64,000 nucleotides of DNA from Candidatus Omnitrophota bacterium (lineage in GTDB: Bacteria; Omnitrophota; Omnitrophia; Omnitrophales; Aquincolibacteriaceae), in contig CAISGE010000058.1 in the NCBI GenBank assembly GCA_903884815.1, positions 6,583 to 70,582 on the forward strand, in the 5' to 3' direction. The translations under genes were made by a program, and so were the position numbers. The first letter of the stretch is position 1, and each line of letters opens with the position of its first letter. Below are positions 10,801 through 60,717 of this stretch, in pieces. Below the pieces are notes generated by a model. It did no database searches. It saw only the letters and a program-made list of their open reading frames with translations, and was not told where the DNA came from.

Positions 10801-13800
10801 TTTCACCGGGCACTATTTCCGCCGGCCTCCGGAGAACGCCGCTCCGAGACGCACTCGAAGTCTGCTTCTGAGCCTGGCTCGCGAGCCGGGCACTCGACCG
10901 CGGTCACGCTTTCGGAGGTGCTTGCGGCTCCGGACGCCGCGATGAAATTCCAGATCCCGGATATTAAAAATCCCGGAAGGATGATCGAACTGGAGCGGAT
11001 TGTTCCGAAAGAGGACGAGCCGGTCGCGAAGCGCGAGGGATTACTGGCGGGTACTCGGCTCCTTTCTTTCAACGTGGCGGGTCTCAAGGATTCCATTCTG
11101 ACCCTGAAGTATTCCGAAGCGGATAACGTCGTTGAAGTTCTGTATATCAGCGTCCGGGGAGGGCAAGACCGAGGACTCGCCCAGTCGGTCTATCAATGGA
11201 TCGCGCGGACAGCGCCTCCCGGGCACAGGATCCTGATTTCCCCATTCAACGAACCGGCCCAGCTTGTCTTTTTGCGTTCCGTAGAGCTTGCGGGGATCGA
11301 GCTGGTGATCGACCGGAGGACATTGAATGATCGTGACATTATTGAAGCGCTGAATGTTCCTGCGGATCAAAATCAAATGGATTCTCTGGATTATCTCCGG
11401 TTGGTCCTGACGCATCCGCGACTCGAGCGGACTTTTGTGGAGGGTAGGACCCCAGACGGTGTGACCGGGATCATATTCAGGCAAAGACCCTCGGAAACTG
11501 TAAAAGCCGGGGAAGGAGATTGGTTGGCGCTTGGTCCTGGAGAAAGAACAGCGCAGGAACTCAGGATCAAGGTGCGGGGAATGCGGCCCGGCGGAAGCGT
11601 GGTCGAGGAAGCCACCGCCATCTTCAGACCCGCCGGCTATTTTGAGATCGTAGATCAGCGCGGGGACGAGATTCTTTCCGGCCGTTTATCCGTGGTTCCC
11701 GTCACGAAGATCTCCGGCAACCCCGTCCGCTCGGAGACGCGCTTGGATGAAATAGACGACTATGTACCTGAGCCCTTTGATGTCACGGTATCCGGGGTGG
11801 CGACGGCCGGGCAATTGCTCCATTTGCGGCCCATCAAGGGCTTGCGCCCGATCCTGAAAGCTTTCCCCCATGCCCGTGGGCGTTTGACGTTGCTTGACTC
11901 AAGCGACGGTACGGCGACCACAGCCGACGTGCGAAGTATCATGAGTATTCTTTTGATGACCGTCCAGCCGGGAGTGAAGATTCTGGTCGAAACGGGCGGG
12001 GAGAATGCTCAAGGCTTCTTTGATGCGATCATATCGTGGATCGAGGCAAATGATGAGAAGAGTCTACCGGTAATGATCGGGCAAAGTGCAGATATCCTGG
12101 CACTCTCGGGAGTCAAGTATGCTGCCCAGGATCCGGAAGAGCTTGCCGCAGTAAGCGCTGAGAAGATCCGGAAACTGGCCGGTGATTCTGCAAAAAATTC
12201 CGAAGGCGAGGTGCCTAACGCCTCGGTGGTTCTAAGATGGAAGAATCCCGTCTCCAGAAAAAAGGATATTCAGTTGGCAGTGGCCCCTTCCTGGATCGGG
12301 CATCTTCTTTCGCATCCCGATCTGGCGGCCGCGGCGGGGATGGCCATGACAGGAAAACCGGGAGGGCCGGATCTCAAATTGCACGGTTATTACCGCCTGC
12401 TCGTGGATTTTGACGGACACAAAAAGCTTGTTTCCATCACGATCCTTCCGGACGTAGGTGTGTTCGATGAATCTAAAAAACCGGGCGCGCCGCAGAAGGA
12501 AAGGGTGAAGGCCGAGAAGCAGTTCCGGGATGATGTGATCCTCCTTGCGCGTTTCTGCGCGAAGATGACGGAGGCCTATGGGCTGACGGAACGAGAAAAA
12601 GACGCGATCCAAGTGGACATTCTGGGTTTCGACGAATGGGCGGCGGCGCTCCGGGCGAAAGAAAGGGGAACCCCGATATCGGACGAAGATAGGGAAGAGG
12701 GCGGGGCGATTACGTTAAGTCAACTCAAGGCCCTGGCCGCCTGGCCGCTAGAAAATCCGTGGCATATCGAGAATTTCGGCGACCGCTCCGAAGTCCGCGC
12801 CCCTGAAGTATTACCGAGCGTGGCTTCCATTTATGAGCGTTTGCCGGCCGCCATCAATGAGCTTCTGGGTGAGGCGGGCCTCTCTGAGACGGAATTGGCC
12901 GCCGCTCGAAATATGACGGAACTCCTGACGGATATTTATAAGGATATGGGGCTTGCGGGTGAGGAGTTCTACCACAACATGGCCCACAACCTGGAAGTGA
13001 CTTATCTGAGTCTTTTGGCCGCCGCGGGGAGGCCGGAGGGCCCCAATGCCTGGGACGCCAAGATCCTTTTTGTGTCGTCCATGCTACATGATTTCCATGT
13101 GCGGAAACCCCATATGAATCCGCCGGTGGTCGAACAGACACTCCGACAACTGAAGCCTGTATTTCATAACGAACCGGCCGTGGGTCTTGAGGCGGCGGAT
13201 GTCCCTGTTTACGAAGCCTTGTTTACCACCGAACGCCAGGCTGCGCTCAAAGCGGCTCTGGCAGGAGTTCTTGGAGATGTTCCGCTGCTCGAGGCAGTGC
13301 CGGCGATCGAGGCGATCATCCGCCGATCCGACTTTGATCCCAGCCCCGTGGAATCGGAAAATATTTCGGCCCGGTTCCTTCAGGCGCTATACAAGATCCC
13401 GGCGGGTTCTCAGCAGAGGCATGTGGTGAACCTGGCCTGGCTGATGCAGATGATCGACTATGCCGGGTTCTATTGTCTTCTCGATCAGGAAGCGGTCCTT
13501 CAGAAGGTCATTCCCGGACTGGCTAACGAAAAGGGAGCCGATAAGGCCAGCGCAGAAGGAACTTATCGCTATTTTCTAAAACTCAAGCTTGCTTCCGGTG
13601 ATAATGAGGGTGATACGGCGCTTGCGATCGTCCGTCTTCTTCCCGAGGTTTTTAGGCGAAATCTTTTATCGAGTTTCGCATCGTTTGCTGCCCTGAGCAA
13701 GGCGTCTGATAGCTGGAAGGCAAAGGAGCCGGAAGTCTGTGCGAAATTGGGAGTTGAGATGTATGAAACCCGGATTCCGGAATATCGCGTTTGGGTCCGA

Positions 13801-16800
13801 TTGATCGAAGCGGAGATCCGGGAGAGTCCTCTCGAGATGTGGGAGGGCATGAAGGAAAGCTTCGTGAGTGGAATCTATGAGGGTCGTAGGGTGTTACCGG
13901 ATGACCTGGTTTCTTTTCTAAAAGCGTTCGCGGAATCCCATTTAAAACTTCTGACGTCTGCTGCGGCACCCGGCGGAGAATCCCAAGTGCCGGAATCTTC
14001 GGAAAAGGGAAACATCCTCAAAAACATCCGCGCCATCCGCGACCATCTTTGGAAATTCTTTGATTCAGGGCAATATCCTGATCCCGAAATCCATAGAACG
14101 ATCCTTAAGCTGAATGCAATCCTTCGATCAGAATCGCGCACCCCTCCCGAAGGGAAGGCGCCCGGTAAGACGGTCTGGGACCGGGTCAAGACCGTGTTTG
14201 TCTGGGCTATGTGGATCACGGGCGGAGTCCTCTGTCTCGGAATTCCCTTGGCGGGGATCATTCTCTACCACTGGGATAAGGGGCTTTCGGGAGTACCGAT
14301 GGGGTTGTATCTCGGGGGCGCCTGTCTCGCCATAGGGGATTCGTTTTTCTTTGAGAGAATCGTGGAACGGTGGCAGAAGAGGATCACGTCCTATTTCGAG
14401 ACGCGCCTGATGCACTGGATGAGGCAGCATGAGCCCTCTTTGTGGTACTTGATCCTGAGTTATAAAACAGACGACGCGAAAGATCGTCTCCTGAAGATCT
14501 ACCGGGATAGGTTTTTCCGAAAATCCTCTTTTGAGAAATACATGAATGCCGTGAACAAAGTTCTGGAGTCGATACGTGCGGTCCATCCGGATTTGTGGGT
14601 CGACGTCCTGGCCTTGCTGAACGGGGGATTGCTTTACGATGAGTATGGCCGCGGGGAAAAGGACATGGGGATTGTTCGCGATCTCGTGACGGATGACATC
14701 TTGTTTGGCGATCTTAAGCCAAAGCCTGAGGCGCCGGAGGTTGTCGAGTTTATTGCTTCGGGTCTTTCAAGGGATTTTGGGCGCATAAAATTCGGCGATG
14801 ACCCTTTCTCGAGCACCGACCATGAGAAATTCATCTCTCTCTTTAACCGTCTCCCCAAGCACTTTGGGATCAGGGTTCTGCGGTTTGGGAAAAACAAATA
14901 TGCTCTGGGGGTCAGCCTCATTGAGGCGCACGGTCCCGAATACCGTTGGCCTCTGATAAAGCAATGGGGGAAAATCTTCATTAACCGGACGGCACTCGCC
15001 ACCTCTCTCGTCGAGACGCCAAGTGTGAAGCCCACGGCCATTTCCAGGGAGAGAGAAAGATTTTCCCCTGACCGTTTGCCCGAGTCCGTAAAGTTGAAAG
15101 AAGGAAACACGAGGCTGGTCTACTTAGCGTTTCCTTATCCGGATGAAGGGAACTATCCTTCCCCGGACGCTCAAGGGCCGCTTTATCCGCGCGGTCTACG
15201 AGGGCGGCCTTCGGAGAACATTTCGGACCATATTTTCTTTGAGCTAGGGGACGGGAAAATTCTCCCGAAATATAGCACGGACGATGAGGCGCCGGCTTAT
15301 GCCGTCGTGATCGATCTCCCCGCGGACCTGGCAAAACAGGCCCTTCTGATGGAAGCCCACGATGTGCCGGCGCCGGACGCAAAAGGTCAATTAACATTCG
15401 ATCCCGCTTTCGCGAATTTGGCGTTTTTGTTTTCCGAGAAGAGCAAACCGAACATCATCGGAGTGATCGACCGCGCGACGCTTGAATTCATACCCAATGA
15501 GAGTCGCTCGGAAGCGCGTCCCGGTGTTGTTCGTGATCCTCAACAGGTTGTTGCTTATGTTAATGAAATCTTGAAGCGTTTTCCGGATTCTCTGGCTTCA
15601 GAATGGAAGGCTCGTTTAGAAGGATTCAGAACATTCAGCCCCGCTCCGGGGCGCTATGAGGGAATGGTTGCTGAGTTGAAAGAATTCACAGTAGCGCTCA
15701 ATGATAGCGTCATGAAGGCGCGCGGGTCAGCAGGCTTTCAAGCGGTTCTTCCCGTCGTGATCGATCTGGACGGTTTTGTGAGCGCGCTTCCTCGCTCTGA
15801 GATGCACAGTTCTACTTCTGGTTCCGGGAATCAGAGGTTGGATGCCTACGAGACGAAGGGCGGAAGGACCACCGTCGCGAAGAAACTTTTGAAGGTCGGG
15901 CTCTGGGCGGGGCTCCCGCCCGTGATTGCCGCGGTGATCGTTAATTTTGCGGCTCTTTTCTATCTGAAACACCACGAGGAGCGTGTTTATCCCGGGGACG
16001 GTTTTGAGCTGGGTGTTTATCCCTACGCTCAAGTTGACGGTAAGAATATTTTCTACGTTTCCAACGGGCCGCTCTACGGAGAGAGCACGAAAATAAAAGG
16101 GGAGCGTTTCAATATCGGCCTCGTCCGCTCCATGGGGAAAACAATCAATATCTACAACCCGAACGCTTCTGGCAGCGCACAGCAAAAAGCCATCTTTCTG
16201 AAAAACAAATCGGGCGAGATCCGCATTATTGCCGCGGCTGATTTTTCTGCCGAGAAATACCCCTTAGAAGATTGGCCGGATGCGTTCCAGGCAGGTCCCC
16301 TGGCCGTCATTGACGGAAAGATCAATGAGAGTATTTATTCCTGGAATGAATCTCATGACGGACGCAAGGTTTTTATCGGCGTGGACGCCACCCAAAGAAA
16401 TTTGTTCGTGCTTGAGCTCTATGGGAATGATGCCGCCGGCTATACAGCTCCCGGGACGAAAGAATTTAAGATGAAAGTCGAAAGATTTGTCCACGGTCAC
16501 GCGATCCTCGACGGCATGTGGACCGATGGCGGCACCATGGGTAAAGAACCGGGCCAAAGGAAGCCTGTCACAGTCCTTGGCGGAAAGCTCATCCCTCAAG
16601 CGGGTCCTCGCAACGAGAGACGCTTGAATCCTATTGATTCAAGCAATTCCAAACGGACATGGATCCTGGGTTCGGTCATTGCGGCTCTGGCGATTGGAAT
16701 GCTGATCGTTAAGGTCGTGGAGCCTTCTTCCTCTGAGAAAGAAGCGGAACTTCGCAGGAACGGGGAGCACAGTCAAACAATCGTGCCGGCCCCTTTGGAA

Positions 16801-19800
16801 GGCGGACCTCAGGTGACTCGGAGAGCGCCGAGACAGGTGAACGTCCCCTATGATGACGCGACTTTGCAGGAGATCAAAAAAGTCAAAAAAGACGTCGCTT
16901 CGCAGTTCGGCATGACGGTTGACGGCTATCCCAGGCCGTTCAAAAAATTTCTCGACGAATATCTGGGGAGCCGGTATCTCGCGAATCCCAAGGATCCACT
17001 CCTCCTCACGAAGGACCTCCCGACTTTGTGCGAGCATGCGTTGAAGAATCACCCGCAGCTGATATGGGAACCTGGAAATCGTCCTCTCCCGAGAGCAGGC
17101 GAGATCGTTATCGAAGAAAACATTTCAGAGTTAGAGCCCCTTCGCCTTTCGAACGGAGACATCATACAGACCGCTATCCCCACGATCTACCTCAACTACA
17201 AGGAAATCATGCCATTGGAAAATGTCCCGGAGCCCGGGGGTCCACGCTCTGAGATGCGGCGGAAGCGGGAGACTCTGACTTCCGCGTCGAATCCCGAGGA
17301 GATCGTCGCCGGAGGACGCGTTGCGTCGCGCCGGGAATTTCAAAAAGCCATTGAAGGATCAGCGCGAACAAAGATTGTAGGCCCTCAATGGATGCGCTAC
17401 CGGAAACTTGAAAATGCGGCGGACGCTTCACGGTTTTTGAAAAACGGCAAAGTTGATATCCTGGAAACGAAACAGTGGGGAGGACCCTATATTTCTTCCC
17501 CCAGCCCCGGATTCCTTCATCCTATTTTCGCGGATGTCCGCGAGAAGACCCATTTGGTGGTTGAGTTGACGCCGTCTGCTGTGGAGAAAGCGGGCTATGT
17601 GGGAGCTCCGGGGGCCTCCGGAGAATTTTTCCTGAGAGATGTGGAGCGTGCCTGGATCGTCAAGGATGAGGAGAGTGGCCGGATCCGCTATCAGGAGGTC
17701 CGGCTCGTGGGCGATAGGATGCTGGCCCGGGCCATCCGTTACTGGATACAGAACTGGAAAGAAAAAATTACGGAGATCCTGGACTCGTGGCGGAAGGTCC
17801 TTGGGGAGGATGAAATGAACGCCCTGTTTGAAAAACTCAAGGCCGAGGGGGGGATTCCTAAAGGTATCACGATCGATGCGAAAGCGGATGCGGCGGGAGG
17901 GGTGCTGATCGATATCCGTCGTAGAACCACACGGGATCGGCCTGTGACCCTGCTTCGGTTTAAACCGCAGTGGATCGCGGATCCGGAGGACAAGGATATG
18001 CAGATCCAGGTCCCCGGTCAGCGGATCACGAGGATCTTCGCGGGTGGCGGGAAGCTTTACGTGGAATATTTAAGTTCAAGGGAGCTTTTCCCGGAACGGC
18101 GCTACAGGGTCGTGGATCTTAAAGATCCTCGTGAGATGAAATCGGAAGATCTGAGCCAGGCAGAACTTGGCGCGAAATCTCCGGAGATCCTGAAAATCTT
18201 CAGGCCTTCGCGTCAGGGATTCAAGAAAATCTATTCTGAAAGTAAGAAGCACCAACTCTGGGTGGAAGCGGTCCTTGGGTTGGGTGCTGTGGGCGCCTTG
18301 TTCGACCGGTTCCTGACCCCGGAAACCGTCAACGCTGTTGTTCTGTGGGCCAAGCCGGTCTTTTATGATCTTTATAACAAAACCAGCAGGGATCCTGTCT
18401 ATTTTTGGATGGGGGCCTACCTTGCATTCGCGATCGGTGGTCTTGCGTACCACGCCGGTCTCTTTGGCGTGATTTTTGAATATATTCGTCTGCCATTTGG
18501 ATTGATGGCCATGGGGATCAGATTTGTCGCGGCAGGCGGAGCGTACCTGCTTGAGACCATCACCTATGTCACCCCAATTCCGGATAGCCTCTACGATCTC
18601 GGGTTCATGAACCGTTCTCCGGACGCGGGGGATATTGAAAAACTGAGATCGACCGAGTCAATGTCCGGTAATCCTGCGGGAATACTGGGAATTAAGACAG
18701 GTGGGGAGCGCTCCGAGACGCGCTTGCAAGCCAATCTTGCGATCTCGGATGTCGAGGCCTCCCAACTTGCTCGTGAGGTCAGCAATATCCTCGGGCAAGG
18801 AACAACCCTGCTCAGAAAAGAAACCATTAAAATCAACGATCAATCCTTTGACGTGGAAGCGACCGAGGAGATGATGCCTTTAAATAATGAGGAAATATAT
18901 AAGCAGCCTGTCTATGCAAACAGAATTACCCGGATCGGTTCTTTCGTGTTTGTGATTCCGCCGCATGGTGAGACCCGAGAGGAAATCGAGCAACAGTTTG
19001 CAAAGCTGCGCAAGAGTTCGGATCTGTTCCGGAATTATGAGGGGAATGTTCTGGTCGTGGAGGGCACAGCGTTCGATTACGCGGACGAGCACATGATTCA
19101 TCCGCAGACGCGTTTTGCGATCGCTCTTATGCTGAGTGAGGCGAAGGCGTTACGGGGCGAGGTGTTTGAAGATTACGGCACGGGTCCCGGGATTCTTTCG
19201 CGGGTGGCGTTCCGTCTGGGTGCCAGAAAAGGGATCATGTATGAAAAGGAACGCGGCGCGCTTAAACTGGCGCGAGCACATCTCAACGCTGAAGGGCTGA
19301 GGGAGGATACGGATTTTTTCATCGTGCGGCAGGATCTTTTGAGCACGCAAAACGCCGGTTCTTTATTAAAACGCCTTGGGAGGCTCTTCGGTTTCGGCCT
19401 TCAGAGGGATGCCGAACTGCGGGACGCACAAAACGAAGCCAGCATCGCGCTGATCAATATCGGACCTGAGTACGGGGAAGTGAATTATCAGGCAGACAGC
19501 CTGGCCTCAAGTCATCCCGGGGAGAGGCTTCTCATCAACACGGGCTATCTGCTCGCCGAACCCGCCGATGTGGCGATGCAGAAACAGCAGATAGAGAATG
19601 CGACCCTTTTGCTAAAGAAGGACGGTTGGAAGGTGGATCGGGTTGAGTTGCCGGAAGGCTATGCCGCATTGGTGGCTCGGCGCCAGTCTCAAAATCAGCG
19701 AAACGAAATGCGAGCGGAGAAGTATGCAGTGAAGATACCCGGAGCTGGAAACGGCCGGACCACGGAGGTCTGGTTGGATGGCGAGTTGGCTTTGGCATTG

Positions 19801-22800
19801 AGGAATATGCCGGCGGGAACGTCGGTCACTCTTTGGGGAAGTGCCGCCGTTGCGATGCTTCTGGCGCAACGGGGCCCGTTAGCGGCTCATCGATTAGGGG
19901 ATTTTATCGGAGATGTGGATCTCGTTATCCATCACGGGGATGAATCAGCGATCCGGTCTGCTTTCCTGCGTGCGGGGGAACAGGCTCAAGAGAAGCCTCT
20001 CTCCGTAAGTATCCATGAACCATCACTGCTCGATAAATTGCATAACACAATGCATTTTACAGCTTACGATTTGCCTCTTCGCATCACTGTGGGAGAAGAT
20101 CGTCAGCTTACGATCGAATTTGACACCCAGCCTGCAACGGCGACGGGGCAGGAATCTCGGGAACGTGATATTTCTGCGTATCTCGAAGATCTGCTCAATA
20201 AGAGATTAGTGACACCGTGGCCCGCTATGAGCATCGAGGATGCTATCCGGGGTGTGCGCGCGATGCTCGTGTTCGGTCTCATGCCTGATAAAGTCGAGCT
20301 CCAGAAGATAAAGGACGTATTGACGGTCGAGGAACCATGGATTGGAAAATCTGCTTTTCTCCGGGACCTTGATCGGGCGGGGAGCGACGGGTTGGCACTT
20401 TTGAAGGATCAGGGATTGCTGGATACCCGTCTCAAAGAGTGGCTTATCGGCCGCTCCCCCACAGAGTTCCCCGAGAAGCGAAACGAAATGAGGGTGGTTG
20501 AAGCAGCGCAGATCGAGAATTTACTCCGGGAAGAGAGACATCCGTTTGAGTATTACATTGAAGACCCGGTGCTGGCTTATCCGATCGACGAAGCGCCCGC
20601 CTGGATCCTCGATCATCTGAAGCTAGCGAATATGTTGGTCTTTCCGCAGACCCAAGGTGCACCTTTCACGAATCCCGCAGGCGAAAGCCTGGCCGGATTC
20701 TATGTGATGCTGAAGTTCCGCAACGGCGATATCAATCCGTATCTCGTGGGGCATGATTATTTTGAAAGGGAATATTCGGGGGAAGAAGATCCCGTGAAGC
20801 GTGAGAACTTTATCGACGACAACGGTTTGAAGACGGGCGGGCTGGATTTTGGGGAAAAAACGCCGCTTTTCCAGAAACGGCATCCCGTGAAACTATTCAA
20901 GATGTCGGAACTCCCTAATTACCCGGTTTGGGAGAACATAAGCATTCGACATCCCAATGGCGTCCTTCAGGAAAAACCGGCCGGGGAAGACGCCTATATT
21001 TTGCAAGATATGGATGGAAAGATCGAAATGACACCGGGGGACATTCCCTCCGGTTACCAGTCCCTTAAGCTGATCAATCAGGACCGGTTGGCTCTCGAGG
21101 GATTCACCGTGGGGAAACCGCTGACAGATATGGCGATCCAGGGGGTTAAATCCTTGGGTCAGGGAGGATCCTCACGGGTCTATCCCATGAAGGGAATGCC
21201 CGGATTCGTTTTGAGGCTTCCGCTCCCGGGGCTGAGTGTTTCCGAAATAAATCAGGCGGAGGAGGAACTTTTTACTCAAGCGAAATTAATGGAGCTATTC
21301 AACAAGGACGGCGGGATCGAGACGCTGTCGGCTTTGGATAAAATGGGAACAATGGACAATGGGACACTCTACATGGTGCGTTCGGGGCCATGGAAGGCGT
21401 ATACGATGGAGAGTGGCGAAGCGGAGAAGATCCCTCCCGTTGAGAAAGTCCGGATCCTCAGGCTGATGCTGGAAACGCTTGCGTGGGTCCACCGCCATGG
21501 TTTCCATGGAGATATCAAACCTGAAAATATCCTTGTCGAGGAAGGGACCCTGGAGCCCAAGTTGAACGATTTTTCGGCCGTTCGGGCTACGAATATCCAT
21601 GACCCGGGGAGCTATCGCATTGTCGGAGAAACCGCCGGCTATTCGCCTACGGATATTTTGGGGCCTGTTTATGAGGACTTGCCGATAAATCCCGCCTGGG
21701 ATATTCACGCATTTGCGCGGACGATCCTGGCGATATTGAGTGCCCCCCCGGAGGCCGACACGGGATATAGCCGTATTGAAAATGTGATCTGGCGTATGAA
21801 AAAGTACGGCAATTACAAACTTTTCGAAGCGGATCTCCTGGGAGATCTGCTCGGTGAGACACTGCCCGGGATCGGATTAAGCCCCGTGTGGGATCAATTT
21901 CTCATGTCGACGATCGCATGGAGGTTTGTTTCCTCCGCAAGGTCGCAAAGGCAAACCGTTCCCAAGGCTCAATGGCAGGGGGTTCTGAATCAGGCATTGT
22001 CGATCAGGATGCGCCCCGAGGATTATCAGCCCTACCGGGCGAGGCTGGATGGGGAGACTCAGGCGCTTGTCGACAAACTACTGCGCGGTGAAACCATGAC
22101 CGACAGGGAGATCGTTCATATAAACCGCAGGGTTTTAGAGCTCTCTTCTCCGGACCAGATCGCGAAGGCCCCAAAACCAGAGGTGGACGGGAATGTGGAT
22201 CTCTTCCTAGAAAAGATCCCGCAGGCCCAGAAGGAGGCCCTGAGGCCGCTGATCCAATTGGCGCTGACGCGGGGTTACGAGGTTCTTCCCGAAGGCTACT
22301 CCGCGCAGAAATTCCTTGAGGAATTTGATGCGGCGACAAAGGTGCTTTTCCCGGATGGAGCGCCCTTCGTCCACGGGCTCAGGCAACGCGCCGAGATCCG
22401 TTCCCCCGAACAGATCCCGGAATTAGTGCGGGGCCAGGCCCCAACAACTTCTGGAATTAAAGAGGGTGAAAACCGCGCCGAAACGCGGACGAGCTCTGTA
22501 ATGTCGAGGCGCAATTTTTTGAAAGGGGCAGTAGTAGCCGCTTCTGTAGCTGCTCTTCCAACCCCAGGTTTGGCTTTTAGTAGTTCTCCGGCTCAAACCA
22601 CGGCCAAAGTTATAGTGCCTATTTTGCCGGAGAACGGATTTTACGATGATGAAGGGTTTTCCTTTGTTGATATTTATGATATGGATCGAAGTGCCGATTC
22701 TGCCCAGGATCGTGAGAAACTGTACGCTCCGCGACTTTATGCCTATAAAAATGGGGAAGCCTATCGAGTTCTTGAGAGTGGCGAAAGAGTCCGGTCGGAT

Positions 22801-25800
22801 TTTTGGACGGAAAATATTAAAAATAGAGGTCGCTTTACCTCTCTGCCGATTTTAATTCCGCAACATATCAAAGAAGCCGGCCTGTTTCCAAGTAAGGCTG
22901 AGACAGACGATGAGGATTGGTTGCTCGCGCAAGTGCGGGATCATACCCGCTGGGCCGCCGGTGCGGTTTATTCTCTTTTGCGCAGCGCATCGCCAAGGAT
23001 AATGGAAAGTCTCACGGATCTCATGGCGGCTGAAGACCCGTCGCCGAAGCTTGCTATCGCCCGCGAATTAGGGCGAACGGATTGGTGGCGGTCGGATGCC
23101 GGGGAGTTCTCCGACCGTTCCCGTATAGTTGGTCTCAGGTCGCAGAGGTTCACGGACGCATATATCGATTACGTCAAACATCATGGCCGGGGGAAAGACA
23201 TCTATGGTCACGATGCTGTTGAGTATTTTTCTCGGTACCTCAGGAACCGTTTTAAATACACTCAGGCGGGGTCACGTTATGTGATAGGTCCCCGTTCCCA
23301 TTTTTACGCAACGAGCCAACCCGGTCTTACGCCTACCAACATCAAGGCCCTTATGGATATCATATTTAAACAAAAATTCTATGAGATCATTCCGGCCCTG
23401 TACTTCAACGACGTTGGCGGGTTTCTGGGAGAGTTTTCGACGAAGGAGAATTCGGCTCCCTTGGACACGAAAGCAAGACCTGAAGGAATTCAGCGCGAAT
23501 ACGGCGTTGCCCCCGAAGAATGGGAGGTATGGTTTTTGAGAGGGACATATGAGGGGTGTCATTGGATGAGAAACAATGGTGCCAAGGAATGGGAACAGGA
23601 GTGGTCGCGAGTGCATGATAACGTGTATTTTGATGAGCGGTCTGACCGGAATCGGGATGACGTAATCAGGCTGGTGAAAAATCCGGATAAATCCATGGAA
23701 GTCAGGGAACTCGCGCTTGAGCTAACCGTGATGAGCGGAAGTGTCCCCTCCTTTGATCTTTTGGATGATATCCTTTCGGGCCGGCAGTGCCCCGAACTTC
23801 AAGATACGTCCCGCCGGCTCAATCAGATTTACGCTTTCCGCAGGCCCGGCGTCACTGACCACGTCCTATTCTCTGTTGCTAATAATCATTGGGTCCAGGG
23901 GATCCTTGCGGTGGGCGGCGGCGCGGCTGTGTATTTTATCGGGCGCAAGATATGGCGGGATTTGTCGGACAGGGGTTCGGGATATCCGAGGACCCGAACC
24001 ATCTGGGACCGCCCCCCTTTCTCTGAGCGGCTCCGGCGATGGGCTGAGAATTTGTGGATAGACGCTCGAAATAAGGTTGCTGACCTGTGGAATAAGGCGG
24101 TCGGAGTTGCTGAAATAATTAATCAGAAGTTCTTGAAAATGAAACTGCAGGCGTTCGCTTTTTGGCTGCAGCCTAAAATGTTTGCAAGAGAACGTGGCGT
24201 ACCTGCTTTGATCGGGATGGCGGCCTACGGAATTTTTGCCGTTAGAAATCGGATCGCTGAGTTTAACCGGTCTGTAAGTCATGTTTTTTACCGTTTCGCT
24301 ATTTCCGGATGGGTGAACCGGAGGGTAAACATATTCTTTGATCGGAATCAACCCGTCCAAGAGCAGATCCAAGGGGCCTTTAACCGGTTTGCCGGAACAT
24401 TAGGCGAGCATCCAGAACCCACCTTTATCCGCGTGACCCTTCCCGAACTTAAAGAGAGAAAAAAGTTTAGGCGCGGATTTGAGCAGAATTCGCTGGATGT
24501 CGCAAAGATCCTGATGCGAAGTTTTAAATATTTTGAGAAAGATTATATCGCCTTGTTGAAGCGTAGCCCCGAAGTGATCGAGTTTGTTTTTCTGGATGAT
24601 CCGAGTAGTCCCGCAGGATGGGTTCAGATGGACGCTTCGGCCGTTCATATCAATCTGCATGGTTTGGATGTTGCAAAATGGGGTACCGATATCGAGAAGG
24701 TCAGCGGGACCCTGAGGCATGAGATTTTCCACAAACTTGATTTTCATCATCGCGTTTTCACACAGCCTGAATGGTTTCAAGCCGTGCGTGAAGCCGGTTT
24801 CGACGGTTTTTTTGACGGCGACAAGTACCTTCCTCTTGATGAAATAGAAAGGAGCACGGGATTCGTGCCTGCCGCTTCAGACACAGAAATGCCGGGCATT
24901 CTCCAGGGTGACGGCACGGTTGATCTATTTCAGGTGGTTGATGCCGATGGCAACACCGTCCAGCGCGGTTGGCGGGACTTTGTCGATCATGTTTATGCCC
25001 GGATGCGCAAAGCGAATTATCGGTCTTGGGTGCATCAGGGCGCTGACGGGGAAAAACGTGTTTATACGAATCTGATGACTTATCTGATGGAATCATTCTT
25101 GTTTCCTCAAGAAATGAAAACTTGGGAAAAACGCGTGGAGGAGGAGGGTTTCAAGGTTCACGTGACGTTCTCCGAGCCGGAAGCCTATCGTTTTTTTACC
25201 CCGCATGAATATTTGGCTGAATTTGCCATGGCCTATTTTGAGAAAGGTGCAGACCGCAAAAAGATCGTCCAGGAATGGGCCGGCGGAGCTTACTTGGATC
25301 GATTACTTCAAAAAATCATGAGCGAGAAAGCGGGTATTACGCTCGCGTCAGATCGCCGGACAGAGGCGCAGATTTCAGAGAAGGCCGTGACCTCAGAAAA
25401 GAGCCCCGCTCAGGGAATGCCCGGGGAGCTCCTCGCTGTAGGTCGTCCCGAGATCCGTTCCCCCGGTCAATTCCCGGAATTAGTGCGGGTCCGGGCCCCA
25501 ATAACTTCTGGAATTAAAGAGGGTGAAAAACGCGCCGAGACGCGGAGCGGGAATGCAGGGAACCCGGTGACGGAAGAGGCAATCCCGGCGGAGGCTTTTA
25601 AAAAGCTTCACGAGTTGATCGATGATCCAAAAGTGACGGGCCAGTATCGCGTCCGGCACAAGTTCCTGGACGGTGAGAGCGTTCTCGGCTCGGGACACAT
25701 GTTCCCCGTATTTATGCATCGTTATTCGGATGAAGAGACCATCAAAACCGCCTGTCTCCGGGTGGGGAGTCTGCTAGTCGTTTCAGACGAATATTTGAAT

Positions 25801-28800
25801 GTGGAGCCGGTGAATGAAGAGCTCGATAGACTGAAGCACGAATATCCTTCACTGCGCGTTCTGAGAGTGGAGGGCGAGATTGCATTCAGTATGTTTTTAA
25901 AGCCGCTTTTGGGCGCAATGTTGACGCAGGATTTCAAGGGAAAGGTGGTCGAGGATATCGGGACTGGAAACGGCGTTCTCATGCAGGCCTCCTCGGCGCT
26001 TGGCGCGTCGGGGACGGTGGGGATCGATACGGATCTGGAATCTCTTGAGAAGGCGGATGCAGATTTGAAACGGGCAGGGAAGAAGGGCATTCTTCTCAGA
26101 AAAGATCAGTGGAAAACGGACCCTCCGGGTCTGAATGAAGGCCTGGATTATGTCTTAGTGGAGGCGGATCTTGCGGACTGGTTCGCTCCCGAGAACGCCA
26201 AAGCCCGAACGCGTATCCTGGGAGGGAAGGAGGCCGATATCCGATTGTCGAATTTCGGTTCCTGGCCTGATTACGCGACGCTGGAGGACGTGCTTCGGGG
26301 GGCTTCGGCAGCGCACGACACGCTTGTCGCGGATTCGACTTCGAGAAATATTCCTGTCGTGATGTTGGGAGGATATCGTTTGGGATTTTCCGGCTTTGAC
26401 GTCAATGGTAAGGAGGTGGATAGAACCGCCGGATCTCCCCTCGCGACATTCTCTGAAAAAGGATGGAAGACAGCGTTGTTCGCTTCCGGCAATCTTCAAG
26501 CCATCCTTGCGACCCGGTCTCGCTCGGAGACGCGGGGGGAACTGAAGTTCGATCCAAAGATCGCTAGTAGTGTTTCGCCTCTGCTTGGCATGATGACGGG
26601 ACAAATGCCGGTCTGGTATTTCCTGATGGCGCTTGGGATCGATCCGGCAGCAGTGACGAGAGAAGATCTTCTTTCTTTGGGTGGCGGCGCCTCGGCAATC
26701 AGGCTAGCGCAGAAGCCGATGCTGGGTTTGTCCGTCCCGGAGCTGCAGTCTGCGGTACTCGATACTCTCAGACAGCTGACGAGTCATGACGAAGGGATCT
26801 TCGAAGCCCAAAGTCCACCGTATCTCAGGATCGAAAATGGAAGTCCTGTCGCGATCGTGTGGCCTGTGAGTGAGGGGACCGTGACTTATCCCTTTGAAAA
26901 ATTCACAGAAGCGCTTCAGAACGGGAGTTTCCCGACCGTTTATTCGCCCTCTGAAAAAACCTCTTCTTATGTGAAGATCGCAGTCCGCCAAGGGGTGGTT
27001 CAATCGGGCGTAGCGAAGATCTTGGGGATCGACGTGGCCGGGAAGGTTGCTGCGGATGTGGGTTGCGGATCAGGAGTGGTCAGTGTGGAGATGCTGAAGA
27101 AAGGAGCCGCTTCAGTCAGAGCCCTGGATATCAGTCTTCTCAAGATGATGAATACGCTGATGTCGGTGGCCCTCGACAAGGAGACGGCCCCGCTTCTTGA
27201 CCGCCTGAGACTTTTCCTGAATGAAATGCCTGCCGCGGATTTTTATGCTTTTAACGCGCCCACTCTGGGCGGAGAGACGCAAACGACGAGGGCCCTTTCA
27301 GAATCGATTAAAGCGGGCGAACCCGCCAATTGGGGGATAAGCGACAAGGTGCTAAAAGAAAAGATCCTGGATCAAGCATTTCAAAAGGCGAATCCGGGAG
27401 CGAAGTTCCTGCTGAGGATCTTTTTCAGGCGCCATTATGTTCCTGGCATTGAAGTGGAAGGCTTGGATATATTGGATGTCGACGAACTGCCGTCACTCGA
27501 GAAGCTTGTCGCGGATTCGGGGTGGAAGATCCCCAAGGGCCAGCCGGTGATCGCCGACGATCGCGAGGGACGCAGGTTTACCGCGCAGGCAACTTTTCTT
27601 CTCGACCGCTCCGAGATGCGAAAGATGGTCGTGTCTGAAAAATTTGCCGTAATGCTTCCGGGCTTGGAGGACAGGCACTATGCCTTCCAGATAGAGCGAA
27701 TGCCGCACTCGATCGGCAAATATCAAGAGGCGCCGGAATCATTCATTGTCCGTTTGTACGAAGGGGACCAGGAGAACTCATATGCGGGTATCTCCTTTAT
27801 GGCTTTTCCGTACCAAAAAGTGCTTTATCTGGAGAACTATGGTCCGGACTTTCCGGTTCTGGGAAAGGGGGCGCCCCGGTTAGGTCCCGGGCGCGCTTTG
27901 CTCGCGGAGATCCTGAAACGACTTCCCGAATACGATGGGTTCGATCTTATTGCCAATGGCTCACCGAAAATACGGGAGTCCTTCGCCAAATTCGGCAAAG
28001 GGTTGAATTTTAAGATGAAAGGGGAAATTACGGACGCTTACCGGGAAGAGCTCATCGCACGGGCCGGCTGGTTGCCGAAGAATACGAAAAGAGTGCTCAT
28101 GCATATCTCGACTGGGGAACTGATCCAGTCGGGATATTTAACGCCGGATCAGTTCGACAAATATTTACGTATCGCGTCTCACATGAACATGGTCGCGAAA
28201 ATCTCGCTCAAAGATCTAGAGTCTGACCGTTTGGAGGGCAGCACTGAGACGCGGGCGGAAAAGAGGGACTATTATGAGGTCCTGGGTGTTGCTAGAGACG
28301 CATCCTACGGTCAAATTAAGAAGGCGTACCGGAAAAAGGCTCCGAAGGTTCACCCGGACACGAATCCCAATGACCCGAAGGCCGAGGAAAAATTCAAGGA
28401 ACTCGGGGAGGCGTACGAGGTTTTATCGGATTCCGATAAACGTGCGGCCTATGATCGCTATGGTCATAGTGCCTTTACAGCGGGAGGTGTCACCAGGAGA
28501 GCGGACCCCTACGCGGAATTTAATGCCGCAATGCAAAAAGCTGAAGCAGAGGCAAGAGCCGAACGCGAACGTCAAGCTCAACAAGCTTACGCGAAAGCCA
28601 TTGACGCGTTATTGGGTCTGGCGATCGTCGACGGGATGGATTTTGACGCGGCTCTAAAAGAGTTAAGGCGACTGGAAGGAGTTTTCGGGAAAGCTTCTGA
28701 GCAATGGAGCGCAAAGGACCTTCAGCCGCCTCAGGCTATGGAACAGCTTGCCAAAAAACGCGAGGCGGTGCTTCAGGCTCAGCGGAAAGCGCAGCGGGAT

Positions 28801-31248: not shown

Positions 31249-34200
31249 ATGACGCAGTCCGAACTGTTTTCACAATTCTGGAAGCGCTCTGTCTCTCTGG
31301 GCGTTGCTCTGTCTTTTCTCGTGACAAGTGTGATCACGAATCCCGGTGTGGGCTATGGACAAACCGCGGGTATCGACTTTGCGAGAATCTTTTCAGCGCC
31401 AGTTGACCGGATGGCGGGACTTGCCGGATTGCCGGCGGAGATCGGCTCGGTTGTTGAAACATCAATTCGACAGACCCTAGACCACAGACCACAGACCACA
31501 GAAAAAAATGCAAGCCCTGCGGACCGTGGACCGCGGACTGAGGACTCGCTTGTCATTCTCCTCCAGGACGCTCACGCGAATCCAACCGCTCAGGAGAATA
31601 TTCGGCAGATCCTCCGCTATCTTTCCGGAAAATACAAAAATATGACCGTCGCTGTTGAAGGTTCCTCCGGCCAACTGCGCCCCGATTATTTCGATGTCAT
31701 CAAAAACCATCCCAAGGCCGGCGAGGCGATCCTTCGCGACCTCAGCGCCAAAGGCGAGATCACCGGAGCTGAGCTTTTTGCCTTTGAAGAGGCAAAAAAG
31801 TACGCAGTACGGGGTACGGCGTACGGCGAAAACGAGTCAGGTGGAAGGCTTACGGAGTATGGCGTGAAAGATTTAAACCCCGTACGCGGTACGCCTTCCG
31901 CCGTACGCGTCATGGGCGTTGAAAACACCGCGCTCTACCGCGAAGACTTGGAATTATTCCGTTCGGTTCAGAAAGATTTTCCTTCGATCACGAAGGCCCT
32001 CTTGCCCGTCCACGCGGCGCTGGATCAGGAAGCCTCCCGTGTTCTTTCACCCGAGCTGCGGGATTTCCTGAAGGAACGCGAGCGCCGGAAGAATGGCAAA
32101 TTCACAGCCTCTCAAACCGCCGGGGATCCTAATATCGCGGCCTATTCCAACTATCTCGCGAAACAGTCGAACAAGGTCCTGGCGATTGATCTTTCCGATG
32201 CCTTTGAGCAGTTGCGCTATCCGAATCTCATGCGCCTTCTCGCTCTCCAGAAGGATAAAGAAATCACGGATCCGGAGGCCGTCACCGCCGCGTGGGAAAA
32301 ATTCATGATCGATCTCGGCAATAAGATCTCCCAGGAAAAGGAATTTCTTTCGGCGCTGCGCTACTTTGCGGTCACGAACGGGCTTGTTCAGTCAAAGCGT
32401 CCGGCGGGGGAACTTCCGTTCCTCTATTCCAAAGAACTTCTTCCAAGAAAACTGCTTGAGTATCTCTATCACCTGAAGACCTCGGCCGGAATCCGGATGG
32501 AGGACTATCCGGTGGTTTTGAAGTCCTTCCGTTCGCTGATCCTGCGCTGCGAGATCGATGCCGCGGGCCTTTTTGAGGAAATGGATTCGCTTGAAGGCCT
32601 GATCACAGCCAAGCTCGCGGTAAGCGACGCGGAGAAAGCGCTCGTCAAACGTTTCGCGTTCCTTGAAAGACTTGAGAAAGCACTCCGACTCGAACTCGAT
32701 CGCAAAGAATACCGCGCTCTTGTGGCGGAGAAGGCATCCCTCCAGGAATTCACCAAGGCTTCGGACTTGCTTGCTGCGTCGCTTGACCGCGCGCTGAAAT
32801 TTTATGAACTTGCCGAGAAGCGCGACAGCGTGTTGCTCGAAAATGCCCTTGAGCTCGAAGCGGAAGGCGTACGTCGTACGGCGGATGACGGAAAATCAGG
32901 CTTGGCGCCTTCCGCCCTACACCTTCCGCTTTCCGAGGTGATTGTTCTTATCACCGGCGGCTTTCACACGGACGGGATCAAGGCGATCCTGGAGGAAAAG
33001 GGGATCCAGCACGCGGTCGTGATGCCGCGGATCACGTCGACCGATCACGGGGAGGCGTATCTTAAGACCATGAACGGCTCTAATTCCGACCTCTCAGCTT
33101 ATTTTAATGTCGCGAACCCGTTCCGGACAAAGCAGCAGGCCATTATTTTTAAAGGCATCATCGAAAACGCCGCTCCGTCTCTTGTTCAAGACGAAAATCT
33201 TTCCGTCTCGCAGGCCGCGAACCTTGTCCAGGACGCACTTACGAATCACCCGCTGCTCGCGAACGCCCTTCGCGCTGAATTTGCTCCCGTCATCCTGAGC
33301 GGAGCGAAGGATCTCAGCCGAGATTCTTCGGCTGGCGAGCCTCAGAATGACGAGTTGATCCATACGCTCATCATCACACCCGTTCAATTCCGTCCAACGC
33401 TGTCCGGCAATTCCGCCATTCCCGCGGAGCTCCTTTTCAGTCCCGATTATGAATCGACGGTGAGCACGGCGCCTTTTTCCGCCGCTGAAGTTACGATGAT
33501 GCCAGCGGGGAATATTGTCCGGCCGGTGGCGCTGTCATCCAAAAAAGTTTCGTTGAAATCGACCCGCGCCGAGACGCGGTCTTTTAAAAAAGCCGATCGC
33601 TCTGAGAAGCGGGATGAGCCATGGTTCCGGGCCAAGCGGCCTCTCAGAGACGGTGCCATTGCCGCGGCGATGATCGGGGCTTCCATCCTTTTGGTCCTCG
33701 CGCATCCCGGCTGGTATTTTGTCGTGCGCAACGGTCTGGGGCAGCTCGTCGGCCACCTGGCTTCGAGCCTTTTGGATAAAAAGTTCAACTTGCAGCGCTA
33801 CTTCCGGGCGGCCGCGTTCGGCGCGGGGTGGGCCCTGATCATTCCTCTTTACGCTTTCTGGATCCCCACGCTTCGGATCGCGCCGGTGGCGGGAGCGCAG
33901 CTGGATCTTTTCGGTTTCGCGCAGATTGGTGTCCTGGCCGGTTTCACGATCCTTGGAGAGATCTTCCTTCCGGCCCGGGATGGTGAGGGGACTTTGGGGC
34001 GGTTCTGGAGGACACTGAAATTCCAGACGAAGAACATCATTTACGCGGAAGGGGGATTTTTCATCAAGCAGATCACCTATTGGACGGCGCTCTCGGGGCT
34101 CTACTACGCTTCGGTCATTTCATTTCCCGCATTTTCACAGCTTATTGTGATCGCCGCCATGATCTTTGCGCTCCCGCAAGCCCTTGAATCCGTCCTTACA

Positions 34201-58878: not shown

Positions 58879-58922
58879 AATATGATGGATGTTGTCAGAC
58901 AATCTACGAATAAGAGGTATCG

Positions 58923-60692: not shown

Positions 60693-60717
60693 AAGTTAGC
60701 TGAAATTATTTCAGCCA

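What the first reader, a model, noticed from the sequence alone, without database searches (positions are those of the whole stretch)
22381..22600. Canonical Tat signal peptide buried at residue 6,874 of giant gene 1, right after a duplicated linker
The in-frame ATG at 22501 begins [27 protein letters not shown]. This is an exact S-R-R-x-F-L-K twin-arginine motif with a hydrophobic core and an AxA-like cleavage site. It follows a roughly 100-bp linker that is duplicated at 25448-25551. An internal secretion signal implies one of two things. Either an originally separate Tat-exported gene was fused in-frame, giving modular accretion by stop-codon loss. Or translation re-initiates internally, so the locus yields several products with different export routes.
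Basis: partly seen in the sequence, partly recalled or inferred. Interest (0 to 1): 0.78.

Follow-up and report, generated by a model that had tools for sequence, protein, structure and literature searches.

The report
Internal export signals in giant polyprotein
A 9,679-residue gene of an uncultured Omnitrophota bacterium is a chain of protein-sized modules joined by a short recurring motif, and one module begins with a textbook Tat export signal, which suggests (but does not prove) that these giant proteins are cut into separately targeted products.

Summary
Giant ORF g1 (1882-30921, 9,679 aa) has at residue 6874 MSRRNFLK, a 17-residue weakly hydrophobic core and AFS. It scores above NCBIfam's TAT_signal cut-off, and about 2e-4 such sites are expected by chance. 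The 99-nt linker before it recurs 3,057 nt downstream at 91% identity.

The genes belong to a family of Candidatus Omnitrophota giant genes. Both ORFs are chains of protein-sized modules (median 326 aa) joined by a junction motif R-[S/A]-E-x-R:
- 27 copies here against about 1 expected;
- 311 against 11 in 59 related giant ORFs;
- no excess in ordinary genes.

The Tat signal starts 4 residues after such a motif. Five more internal Tat-like signals (two with lipoboxes) and Sec-type signals in relatives all lie within 13 residues after a motif. g1 modules match single Pfam families in natural layout.

Best reading: an in-frame cassette array that works as a polyprotein. The ORFan Tat cargo module, flanked by the duplicated linker, must be freed at its junctions to be exported. 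Cleavage and the protease are inferred, not shown. Internal initiation has no Shine-Dalgarno or promoter support. A fossil signal, or uncleaved Sec/Tat-like use, remain rivals.

The parts
1882..30921 (+). Giant ORF g1, 9,679 aa, Omnitrophota giant-gene family
   Evidence: The N-terminal 700 aa have homologues only in Candidatus Omnitrophota.
1882..1986 (+). N-terminal Sec-type signal of g1 ([35 protein letters not shown])
   Evidence: Hydrophobic segment at aa 14-32, basic n-region, TWA at the end. Assigned by eye; no predictor was available.
1882..3981 (+). Conserved N-cap (aa 1 to about 700), the only part shared by the whole family; EreA/ChaN/TIKI/TraB-like core (tentative)
4557..4612 (+). 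Junction linker with RAESR; first copy of a 56-nt duplicated linker
   Evidence: D5, 96% identity with 5427-5482.
5427..5482 (+). Junction linker with RSESR; second copy. The two copies bracket a 290-aa module.
21421..21741 (+). Protein-kinase-like domain in the module upstream of the Tat module
   Evidence: Pfam Pkinase E=1.7e-7.
22391..22489 (+). Junction linker, copy 1 ([33 protein letters not shown])
22387..22401 (+). Junction motif RAEIR (aa 6836-6840)
22474..22488 (+). Junction motif RAETR (aa 6865-6869), 4 residues before the Tat Met
22501..22581 (+). Twin-arginine signal peptide [27 protein letters not shown] (aa 6874-6900)
22489..25545 (+). Tat cargo module (aa 6870-7888), an ORFan with no relative in any searched collection
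24718..24732 (+). HEIFH (HExxH zinc-peptidase-like motif) inside the Tat module; significance uncertain
   Evidence: No Pfam match. The AF2 model is unusable.
25448..25546 (+). Junction linker, copy 2 ([33 protein letters not shown]), ending in motif RAETR at 25531-25545
28252..28455 (+). Junction RAEKR followed directly by a DnaJ J-domain (module residues 1-63 = profile 1-63)
4558..28266 (+). Span holding all 17 R[SA]ExR junction motifs of g1. Their first bases are 4558, 5428, 6199, 7180, 8176, 11728, 12784, 14125, 15505, 17245, 18709, 22387, 22474, 25531, 26521, 27607, 28252.
   Evidence: 17 observed against 0.6 in shuffles (max 5 of 500). Coordinates.
31249..52464 (+). Giant ORF g2, 7,071 aa, same family. 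It has 10 junction motifs with first bases 33565, 33598, 35671, 36466, 38431, 40075, 42520, 49441, 50776, 51661. RSEKR at 33598 is followed by a signal/anchor-like segment.

Best explanation
The Tat signal is the native N-terminal export signal of one cargo module (g1 aa 6870-7888). That module sits inside a modular giant protein of a Candidatus Omnitrophota bacterium.

Architecture (shown). Proteins of this family have a conserved, Sec-signal-led N-cap and a recurrent '...AA' C-terminal tail. Between them lies a hypervariable string of protein-sized modules. The modules are joined in frame by short linkers that carry the motif R-[S/A]-E-x-R.

Origin (inferred from anatomy). Modules are gained and shuffled as in-frame cassettes through recombination between similar linkers. 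This explains why this ORFan module is bracketed by a 99-nt duplicated linker and still keeps its start Met.

Mechanism (inferred, not shown). The giant product is a polyprotein that is cut at or next to the junction motifs on the cytoplasmic side. Each module then follows its own address: no signal means cytoplasm, a Sec signal or TM means membrane or periplasm, and here a Tat signal means export of the folded module.

Need for downstream cleavage. A cut at the downstream junction (RAETR, aa 7884-7888) is required for any Tat export. Another 1,790 residues of cytoplasm-type domains follow (two SAM methyltransferase modules and a DnaJ J-domain), with no convincing stop-transfer segment.

The protease is unidentified.
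For: Shown:
- The signal is genuine and non-random.
- The junction motif occurs 17 + 10 times in g1/g2 against about 0.6 each expected. It occurs 311 times against 11.4 expected in 59 related giant ORFs, and 14 against 0.39 in L008.
- Ordinary ORFs of 150-600 aa from the same loci show 7 against 10 expected.
- Only the five motif residues are conserved; the flanks are not. The motif occurs in frame 0 almost exclusively: 219 against 1 and 1 in the other frames.
- Inter-motif distance has a median of 326 aa.
- Each g1 module matches one Pfam family in natural layout. HATPase_c ends 4 aa before a junction, a HAD domain starts at module aa 37-40, and the DnaJ J-domain occupies module aa 1-63.
- All six hydrophobic internal Tat-like signals lie within 13 aa after a motif. 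They are window g1 6874, L015 1099, L039 1351 and 2233, L061 1531 and L063 3413; two carry lipoboxes. Only 3.6% of residues lie within 20 aa after a motif. For the 3 of 3 signals that passed the strict filter, the binomial P is 5e-5.
- Sec-type signals also follow motifs, for example L024 aa 991 and aa 1299. Module 991-1299 has a signal peptide, an ectodomain, a TM and a basic tail.
- A TM starts within 40 aa after a motif in 24 of 338 cases, against 12.5 +/- 3.1 at random positions.
- The L015 Tat module is homologous to a standalone Elusimicrobiota protein that has its own signal-like segment.
- Duplicated linkers at junctions recur: 19 of 68 intragenic repeats have both copies at junctions, against about 0.4 by chance.

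Topology argument. g1 has a Sec signal at aa 1-35 and no TM until aa 4110. Yet aa 900-4100 carry HATPase_c, HAD, SAM-MTase and HPr domains. This is only coherent if the chain is separated.

Literature. [quoted passage not shown]
Against: - No cleavage product, proteome or N-terminal data exist here.
- No protease was found. Pfam finds only an Rce1-like CPBP domain in g2, and no conserved neighbouring gene exists.
- Tat machinery in this lineage was not verified. No TatA hit and no ordinary N-terminal Tat signals were found in the 1.3 Mb fetched, and no paper links Omnitrophota and Tat.
- The Tat module has no homologues, so conservation of its signal cannot be tested.
- The module contains two moderately hydrophobic segments (aa 7338-7354 and 7438-7454) that could complicate Tat export.
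- Synonymous sites inside the motif are biased. This hints at an extra nucleotide-level role or at recent common descent of the linkers.
Confidence: 0.55

Rival explanations
1. Fossil signal. The Tat peptide is a non-functional relic of a recently fused, once-independent Tat-exported gene. The giant protein stays in one piece and the signal does nothing.
For: - The module is an ORFan bracketed by a 91%-identical duplicated linker, and it keeps its start Met. Both are signs of a recent insertion.
- Most differences between the two linker copies change the amino acid, which points to relaxed constraint.
- Tat machinery is not verified in the lineage.
Against: - Five further internal Tat-like signals in four other genomes keep RR, an h-region and a c-region or lipobox. 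Four of them lack a Met between junction and RR, which suggests older fusions that were still retained.
- Sec-type signals are likewise retained at module starts.
- A perfect SRRxFLK with an uninterrupted 17-residue uncharged h-region and AFS shows no decay.
Confidence: 0.2
2. Uncleaved internal targeting signal. The signal works from inside the chain, as in dual Sec/Tat-integrated polytopic membrane proteins. The h-region inserts as a TM (possibly followed by signal-peptidase cleavage) without any junction protease.
For: - Internal twin-arginine signals preceded by Sec-inserted TMs are established (Tooke et al. 2017, PMC5449189; PMC3471239).
- g1 has four TM-like segments upstream, at aa 4110-5532.
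- In L024 a signal-ectodomain-TM module layout would also give a consistent topology in an uncut chain.
Against: - In the known cases the Tat-dependent helix is the last TM, followed only by the C-terminal cofactor domain.
- Here the signal lies about 1,340 aa after the last strong TM.
- It is followed by 2,780 aa that include SAM-methyltransferase and DnaJ modules, with no strong stop-transfer segment. These would all have to cross the membrane via Tat.
Confidence: 0.15
3. Internal translation initiation at ATG 22501 yields a separate Tat-exported protein from the same mRNA.
For: - An in-frame Met sits exactly at the head of the signal.
- Met is enriched 2.9-fold at +1 after junctions, and in L061 five of ten junctions read RAExR|M.
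Against: - There is no SD at -5..-15 (gcggacgagctctgta), although Omnitrophota genes often carry AAGGAG. The GAGGGTG in the linker lies about 30 nt too far upstream.
- There is no promoter-like site, no Rfam element and no consistent RNA structure.
- Four of the five other internal Tat-like signals have no Met between junction and RR.
- A product started here would still run on to the g1 stop 2,806 codons later.
Confidence: 0.08
4. Chance resemblance or assembly chimera.
For: Only one assembly covers the region. The linker is repeated.
Against: - The joint chance expectation is about 2e-4.
- The position is 4 aa after a junction motif, as in five other cases.
- The two linker copies differ at 9 of 99 positions, share at most 27 exact bases, and keep the frame.
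Confidence: 0.02

Closest known systems
Omnitrophota giant genes (West-Roberts et al. 2023, bioRxiv 10.1101/2023.11.21.568195; Seymour et al. 2023, PMC10066038; 2026 preprint 10.64898/2026.06.07.730766)
   Same: - Same phylum.
- Multi-kilobase ORFs with an N-terminal signal or TM and mixed domains: methyltransferases, histidine-kinase ATPase, glycosidase-like.
- Tandem giant genes.
- Cleavage into several products has been hypothesised.
   Different: - Those papers give no cleavage sites. One states that cleavage points are unknown. The other deliberately discards internal signal-peptide calls as chunking artefacts.
- The R[SA]ExR junction motif, the module-initial Sec, Tat and lipoprotein signals and the duplicated junction linkers are not described in any paper I could search.
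- At 9.7k and 7.1k aa, g1 and g2 are small members.
Dual Sec/Tat-integrated polytopic membrane proteins (actinobacterial Rieske Sco2149, Sco3746, polyferredoxins; Tooke et al. 2017, PMC5449189)
   Same: A twin-arginine signal that is not at the N-terminus of the translated chain and lies downstream of Sec-type TM segments.
   Different: - There the Tat helix is the final TM, and a single cofactor domain ends the protein.
- Here the signal heads one module in the middle of a 9,679-aa chain. It is far from the last TM and is followed by cytoplasm-type modules.
MARTX multi-effector toxins (own knowledge: conserved N- and C-terminal regions, variable effector modules released by an internal cysteine protease domain)
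   Same: - Conserved caps with a hypervariable string of enzyme-like modules between them.
- Release by site-specific cleavage between modules.
   Different: - No CPD (C80) domain or RTX repeats were detected.
- MARTX processing sites follow Leu, not R[SA]ExR.
- MARTX effectors carry no bacterial export signals.
Viral polyproteins and the 'polyvalent proteins' of phages and conjugative elements (own knowledge: Iyer, Burroughs, Aravind et al. 2017, J Bacteriol)
   Same: Many independent functional units are encoded as one ORF. There is a short conserved junction motif with small residues at the position after it. Processing gives separately acting products.
   Different: - This is a chromosomal gene family with several paralogues per genome, not a virus or plasmid. 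No phage or plasmid match was found.
- No protease is identified.
- Modules carry their own Sec, Tat or lipoprotein signals.

Membership tests
Twin-arginine (Tat) signal peptide | Consensus S/T-R-R-x-F-L-K | tested here: met
   S-R-R-N-F-L-K is an exact match. TIGR01409 gives 21.2 bits against a cut-off of 16.7 on the 60-aa segment. Pfam PF10518 gives 20.3-21.6 bits, just under its 22.7 cut-off.
Twin-arginine (Tat) signal peptide | Weakly hydrophobic, uncharged h-region followed by an AxA-type c-region | tested here: met
   [17 protein letters not shown] has 17 uncharged residues and a Kyte-Doolittle mean of 1.3-1.7. It is followed by A-F-S.
Twin-arginine (Tat) signal peptide | Located at the N-terminus of the translated protein | tested here: not met
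   It lies at residue 6874 of an uninterrupted 9,679-codon ORF. It would become N-terminal only after cleavage at RAETR (aa 6865-6869) or internal initiation.
Twin-arginine (Tat) signal peptide | TatA/TatC translocase present in the organism | tested here: inconclusive
   No TatA-like hit and no ordinary N-terminal Tat signals were found in the window plus 88 loci, about 1.3 Mb and mostly giant genes. No literature was found. Whole genomes were not available.
Twin-arginine (Tat) signal peptide | Tat-dependent export of the passenger | not testable with these tools
   Needs an experiment.
Omnitrophota giant-protein family with conserved N-cap | Homologous N-terminal domain of about 650-700 aa behind a signal peptide | tested here: met
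   g1 and g2 are 24% identical. There are 13 protein hits, with E-values down to 1e-264, all Omnitrophota or unclassified MAGs. GTDB genomes hold 233 relatives.
Omnitrophota giant-protein family with conserved N-cap | Modules joined by R-[S/A]-E-x-R junctions | tested here: met
   17 + 10 sites here; 311 against 11.4 expected in relatives.
Omnitrophota giant-protein family with conserved N-cap | C-terminal tail ending ...x-A-A / S-A | tested here: met
   g1 ends ...[11 protein letters not shown] and g2 ends ...ASLKILVAA. Relatives are listed. A C-cap HMM built from relatives did not hit g1 or g2, so only the tail is shared, not the domain.
Processed polyprotein | Conserved short motif at every module boundary | tested here: met
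Processed polyprotein | A protease with matching specificity, in cis or in trans | tested here: not met
   None was identified. Pfam finds only an Rce1-like domain in g2 and an isolated HExxH in the Tat module. There is no conserved neighbouring gene. The N-cap fold assignment is tentative and the N-cap is probably on the wrong side of the membrane.
Processed polyprotein | Separate mature products observed | not testable with these tools
   Needs proteomics or N-terminomics.
Dual Sec/Tat-integrated membrane protein | The Tat-dependent helix is the last TM and is followed only by a C-terminal cofactor domain | tested here: not met
   2,780 aa with MTase and DnaJ modules follow the signal. The last strong TM lies 1,340 aa upstream.
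EreA/ChaN/TIKI/TraB-like fold (N-cap only) | Structural similarity of the alpha/beta core with conserved His/Glu motifs | tested here: inconclusive

The most novel reading that the evidence does not exclude
Omnitrophota giant genes of this family are 'protein-level operons'. They are in-frame arrays of gene cassettes, gained and shuffled by recombination between junction linkers. Each array is translated as one chain and then cut at R-[S/A]-E-x-R. The modules are then addressed independently to the cytoplasm, the membrane, the Sec pathway, the Tat pathway or the lipoprotein pathway.

A still bolder variant is that the polyprotein is delivered into prey cells, so that the modules use the prey's Sec and Tat systems.
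Probability: 0.4. Interest if true: 0.9.

Novelty: new variant of a known kind. Interest (0 to 1): 0.8.

Why it matters
Whether the giant proteins of Omnitrophota (up to more than 100,000 aa) act as single chains or are cut into many products is an open question. The field says it lacks any information on cleavage points, and current pipelines delete internal signal-peptide calls as artefacts.

This finding helps in two ways:
- The buried Tat signal is an export address that makes little sense unless the chain is separated.
- It led to a simple, family-wide candidate junction motif that splits these ORFs into protein-sized, individually addressed units.

That makes the question directly testable. 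One can search existing metaproteomes for peptides that end or begin at R[SA]ExR. The motif also gives a principled way to chop giant ORFs for annotation and structure prediction.

If confirmed, this would be a cellular polyprotein system with per-module Sec, Tat and lipoprotein targeting, and an in-frame cassette mode of gene accretion. Neither is part of the textbook picture of bacterial gene organisation.

Tried and rejected
Searches for relatives of the Tat module that found nothing:
- the 5.8-billion-protein word search;
- full HMMER against 1.84 billion representatives;
- GTDB genomes;
- IMG/VR;
- JGI metagenomes;
- plasmids.

Other negative results:
- A JGI scan for orthologues of the L039 modules that carry two Tat-like signals found nothing, so conservation of internal signals across orthologues could not be tested.
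- tblastn among the 88 loci found no shared cargo modules.
- An AF2 single-sequence model of the Tat module is unusable, with pLDDT 35.

RNA-level explanations for the linker or motif were rejected:
- The apparent CCGCG...CGCGG hairpin shows no covariation; paired cells observed equal paired cells expected.
- There is no Rfam hit.
- Folding z-scores are -1.9 and +0.8 for the two copies.
- The x codon is not preferentially a start codon. G at its third base is favoured for Val, Ala, Thr and Ser alike.

Further ideas rejected or left open:
- Shine-Dalgarno relic: GGAG is possible at only about 11% of sites (estimated from the base frequencies).
- Mobile element or phage origin of the giant genes: the serine recombinase next to tRNA-Glu belongs to a lower-GC island to the right, while the giant genes have many chromosomal paralogues.
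- N-cap as the junction protease: considered, but its predicted extracytoplasmic location and the weak Foldseek support argue against relying on it.
- A C-cap HMM built from relatives does not detect g1 or g2.
Full report
OBSERVATION

The window holds two tandem giant ORFs on the + strand: g1 (1882..30921, 9,679 aa) and g2 (31249..52464, 7,071 aa). ATG 22501 is g1 codon 6874 and reads [27 protein letters not shown]. This is an exact S-R-R-x-F-L-K twin-arginine consensus, followed by a 17-residue uncharged, weakly hydrophobic core and A-F-S.

- NCBIfam TIGR01409 scores the 60-aa segment at 21.2 bits (cut-off 16.7).
- Pfam TAT_signal scores 20.3-21.6 bits, just under its 22.7 cut-off.
- The RR motif alone is expected 0.02 times in g1+g2. 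The following uncharged run has a probability of about 0.01.
- The linker in front (22391-22489) recurs at 25448-25546: 99 nt, 91% identical, 3,057 nt = 1,019 codons downstream.

WHAT THE GENES ARE

The first roughly 700 aa of g1 and g2 are homologous (24% identity). Relatives occur only in Candidatus Omnitrophota MAGs. GTDB genomes hold 233 relatives, often several per genome, and 80 loci were fetched.

Only the N-cap is conserved across the family. The middle of each protein is unique cargo. Most complete members end in a similar tail, '...A-x-[SA]-[AE]-[VI]-x-[KQ]-A-A'. g1 and g2 end in ...AVGTAA and ...ILVAA.

The giant genes (GC 51-58%) lie to the left of a tRNA-Glu (52806-52883). This tRNA is overlapped by a large serine recombinase gene that heads a lower-GC island (41-49%). 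The giant genes are therefore chromosomal and not part of that element.

THE JUNCTION MOTIF

Four residues before the Tat Met lies RAETR, and 29 residues earlier lies RAEIR.

Enrichment:
- R-[S/A]-E-x-R occurs 17 times in g1 and 10 times in g2. Shuffles give 0.6 and 0.55, with a maximum of 5.
- It occurs 14 times against 0.39 expected in the giant ORF of L008.
- It occurs 311 times against 11.4 expected in 59 giant ORF pieces (176,903 aa) from the fetched loci.
- Ordinary ORFs of 150-600 aa in the same loci show 7 against 10 expected.

Sequence properties:
- Across 336 sites only the five motif positions are conserved (S 77%, A 23%; x = V, L, M, A or T). Small residues lie at -1 and +1, and acidic residues follow at +2 to +6.
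- The corresponding DNA pattern is found 219 times in frame 0, against 1 and 1 in the other frames and 7 antisense.
- Synonymous codons vary, so the motif is selected as a peptide.
- There is an unexplained extra bias at two synonymous sites. The first Arg is CGY in 84% of cases. The third base of the x codon is G in 70% of cases, against 29% in matched codon pairs.
- Base-pair covariation is absent.

MODULES LOOK LIKE WHOLE PROTEINS

Inter-motif distances have a median of 326 aa (IQR 185-477). Cutting g1 at the motifs gives modules that each match one Pfam family in its natural position:
- two HATPase_c modules, one ending 4 aa before the junction;
- a HAD hydrolase starting at module residues 37-40;
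- Methyltransf_28;
- HPr;
- a NAGPA-like glycosidase;
- a protein kinase;
- two SAM-methyltransferase modules;
- a DnaJ J-domain occupying module residues 1-63.

Met is enriched 2.9-fold at +1 after the motif. In L061 five of ten junctions read RAExR|M.

Duplicated linkers at junctions are a family trait. Of 68 short intragenic direct repeats, 19 have both copies at junctions, against about 0.4 expected. A second pair in g1 (4557-4612 and 5427-5482, 96% identity) brackets a 290-aa module. Together this is the signature of in-frame cassette accretion.

INTERNAL EXPORT SIGNALS ARE SYSTEMATIC

In the related giant ORFs, every hydrophobic Tat-like signal lies directly after a junction:
- L015 RSEAR|DNRLQGSSRRYFLG...
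- L039 RSEMR|RRDFLGMML...LTGC (Tat plus lipobox)
- L039 RSESR|...TTRRNFVVGAAMAAAAAG...
- L063 RSEMR|SLFSRREFLKTALSAAAAS...
- L061 RAEIR|MAMARRQFLKAAASFAIASFMGGC (Tat plus lipobox)

Only 3.6% of residues lie within 20 aa after a motif. For the three signals that passed the strict filter, the binomial P is 5e-5.

Classical Sec signals also follow junctions, for example L024 RSEAR|KFLGLKGFVLAAALFLSSMTYAQS. Module L024 991-1299 has the full layout of a type-I membrane protein. A TM starts within 40 aa after a motif in 24 of 338 cases, against 12.5 +/- 3.1 at random positions.

The L015 Tat module is 40% identical to a standalone 390-aa Elusimicrobiota protein. The homologous part of that protein begins after its own signal-like segment.

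Because signal n-regions must face the cytoplasm, these junctions are cytoplasmic.

MECHANISM

The architecture is shown. The processing step is inferred.

The best-supported reading is a polyprotein cut at or beside R[SA]ExR, after which each module follows its own address. Two arguments favour it over an uncut chain.
1. g1 starts with a Sec signal and has no TM until aa 4110. Yet aa 900-4100 carry ATP- and SAM-dependent, cytoplasm-type enzymes.
2. The Tat system moves folded passengers. Behind the Tat module lie 1,790 aa of methyltransferase and DnaJ modules with no strong stop-transfer segment. At least the downstream junction, which carries the duplicated linker copy, must therefore be cut.

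West-Roberts et al. proposed cleavage of Omnitrophota giant proteins but state that cleavage points are unknown. A 2026 catalogue suppresses internal signal-peptide calls as artefacts. I found no paper describing this motif or Tat signals in Omnitrophota.

WEAK POINTS

- No protease was identified.
- The N-cap is probably extracytoplasmic.
- Tat genes were not verified for the lineage.
- There are no orthologues of the Tat module, so selection on its signal is untested.
- The module has two moderately hydrophobic internal segments.
- There is an unexplained nucleotide bias inside the motif.
- A single assembly supports the region.

RIVALS

- A fossil signal from a recent fusion (0.2).
- An uncleaved internal signal as in dual Sec/Tat polytopic proteins (PMC5449189), whose defining layout is not met here (0.15).
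- Internal initiation at 22501 (0.08). There is no SD or promoter, and four of the five other signals have no Met between junction and RR.
- Chance or a chimera (0.02).

VERDICT

The finding is real. Its first interpretation, modular accretion of a Tat-exported gene, is supported and generalised. Its second, internal re-initiation, is not.

The main value lies in what it uncovered. There is a family-wide junction motif, and export signals are systematically placed behind it. Together they turn the open question of whether giant bacterial proteins are processed into a directly testable one.

Novelty: a new variant of known kinds (giant Omnitrophota genes, polyproteins, internal Tat signals). 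If processing is confirmed, it would amount to a new mode of bacterial gene organisation.

Noticed in passing
window 52806-54360: A tRNA-Glu (UUC) lies at 52806-52883. Its 3' 41 nt are overlapped by the end of a 505-aa large serine recombinase gene (52843-54360, minus strand). To the right lies a lower-GC region (41-49%) of small ORFs with an HTH gene and a TPR gene, probably an integrated element. No second copy of the tRNA 3' end occurs in the window, so the far boundary is undefined. The same recombinase is found on 9 ENA lake-metagenome contigs (BUCK21).
   Followed up: partly
window 58723-58880 and 60537-60694: A 158-nt direct repeat (92% identity) lies inside the low-GC island and is unrelated to the giant genes.
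   Followed up: no
window 29336-29826 (g1 aa ~9150-9320): Three tandem copies, period 213 nt (71 aa), at 63-72% identity in the C-terminal part of g1 ('...[10 protein letters not shown]'). A 301-nt self-match at 69% identity was also seen by blastn at g1 nt 27476-27988.
   Followed up: no
C-termini of g1 (30886-30918), g2 (52429-52461) and of relatives in L010, L014, L016, L025, L029 and others: Family members end in a conserved tail '...A-x-[SA]-[AE]-[VI]-x-[KQ]-A-A*'. In several members the tail is the junction motif itself (ARSEVRKAA*, ARAEVRQAA*, RAEVRQSA*). The last internal junction usually lies 270-300 aa before the stop. The -AA end resembles an ssrA-type C-terminus (own knowledge). 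Released modules might carry a similar C-terminal tag.
   Followed up: partly
junction motifs, all loci (e.g. window 22474-22488): Synonymous-site bias inside the motif. The first Arg is CGY in 84% of cases, Ser is never AGY, and the third base of the x codon is G in 70% of cases against 29% in matched contexts. There is no base-pair covariation. This could reflect accuracy selection, common descent of the linkers, or a DNA-level (recombination) role.
   Followed up: partly
L005 10001-15368 / L006 1410-6777: In one Omnitrophota genome (GCA_023247055.1) the N-cap is a separate 562-aa gene. It is followed, with a 32-nt overlap in another frame, by a 1,236-aa gene carrying one junction motif. This is a split or minimal version of the family, useful for fusion-versus-fission analysis.
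   Followed up: no
window 3334-3782 and 31878-31908: A short GC-rich repeat (CGCCGTACKCC...) encodes 'RTPY(A/S)' and 'TPGV' peptides. It occurs 3 times in the g1 N-cap and once in g2, in low-confidence loops of the N-cap model (aa 421-442 and 577-587).
   Followed up: no
window 35869-36147 (g2 aa 1541-1633) and 24718-24732 (g1 aa 7613-7617): The only peptidase-like features found are an Rce1-like CPBP intramembrane protease domain in a g2 module (E=2e-10) and an isolated HEIFH motif in the Tat cargo module. Either could be tested as the junction protease.
   Followed up: partly
P0014 (Elusimicrobiota, 390 aa): The annotated N-terminus of this standalone homologue starts with about 34 residues that look like a GroEL N-terminus ([35 protein letters not shown]) before its signal-like segment. 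This is probably a mis-called start or a small fusion.
   Followed up: no
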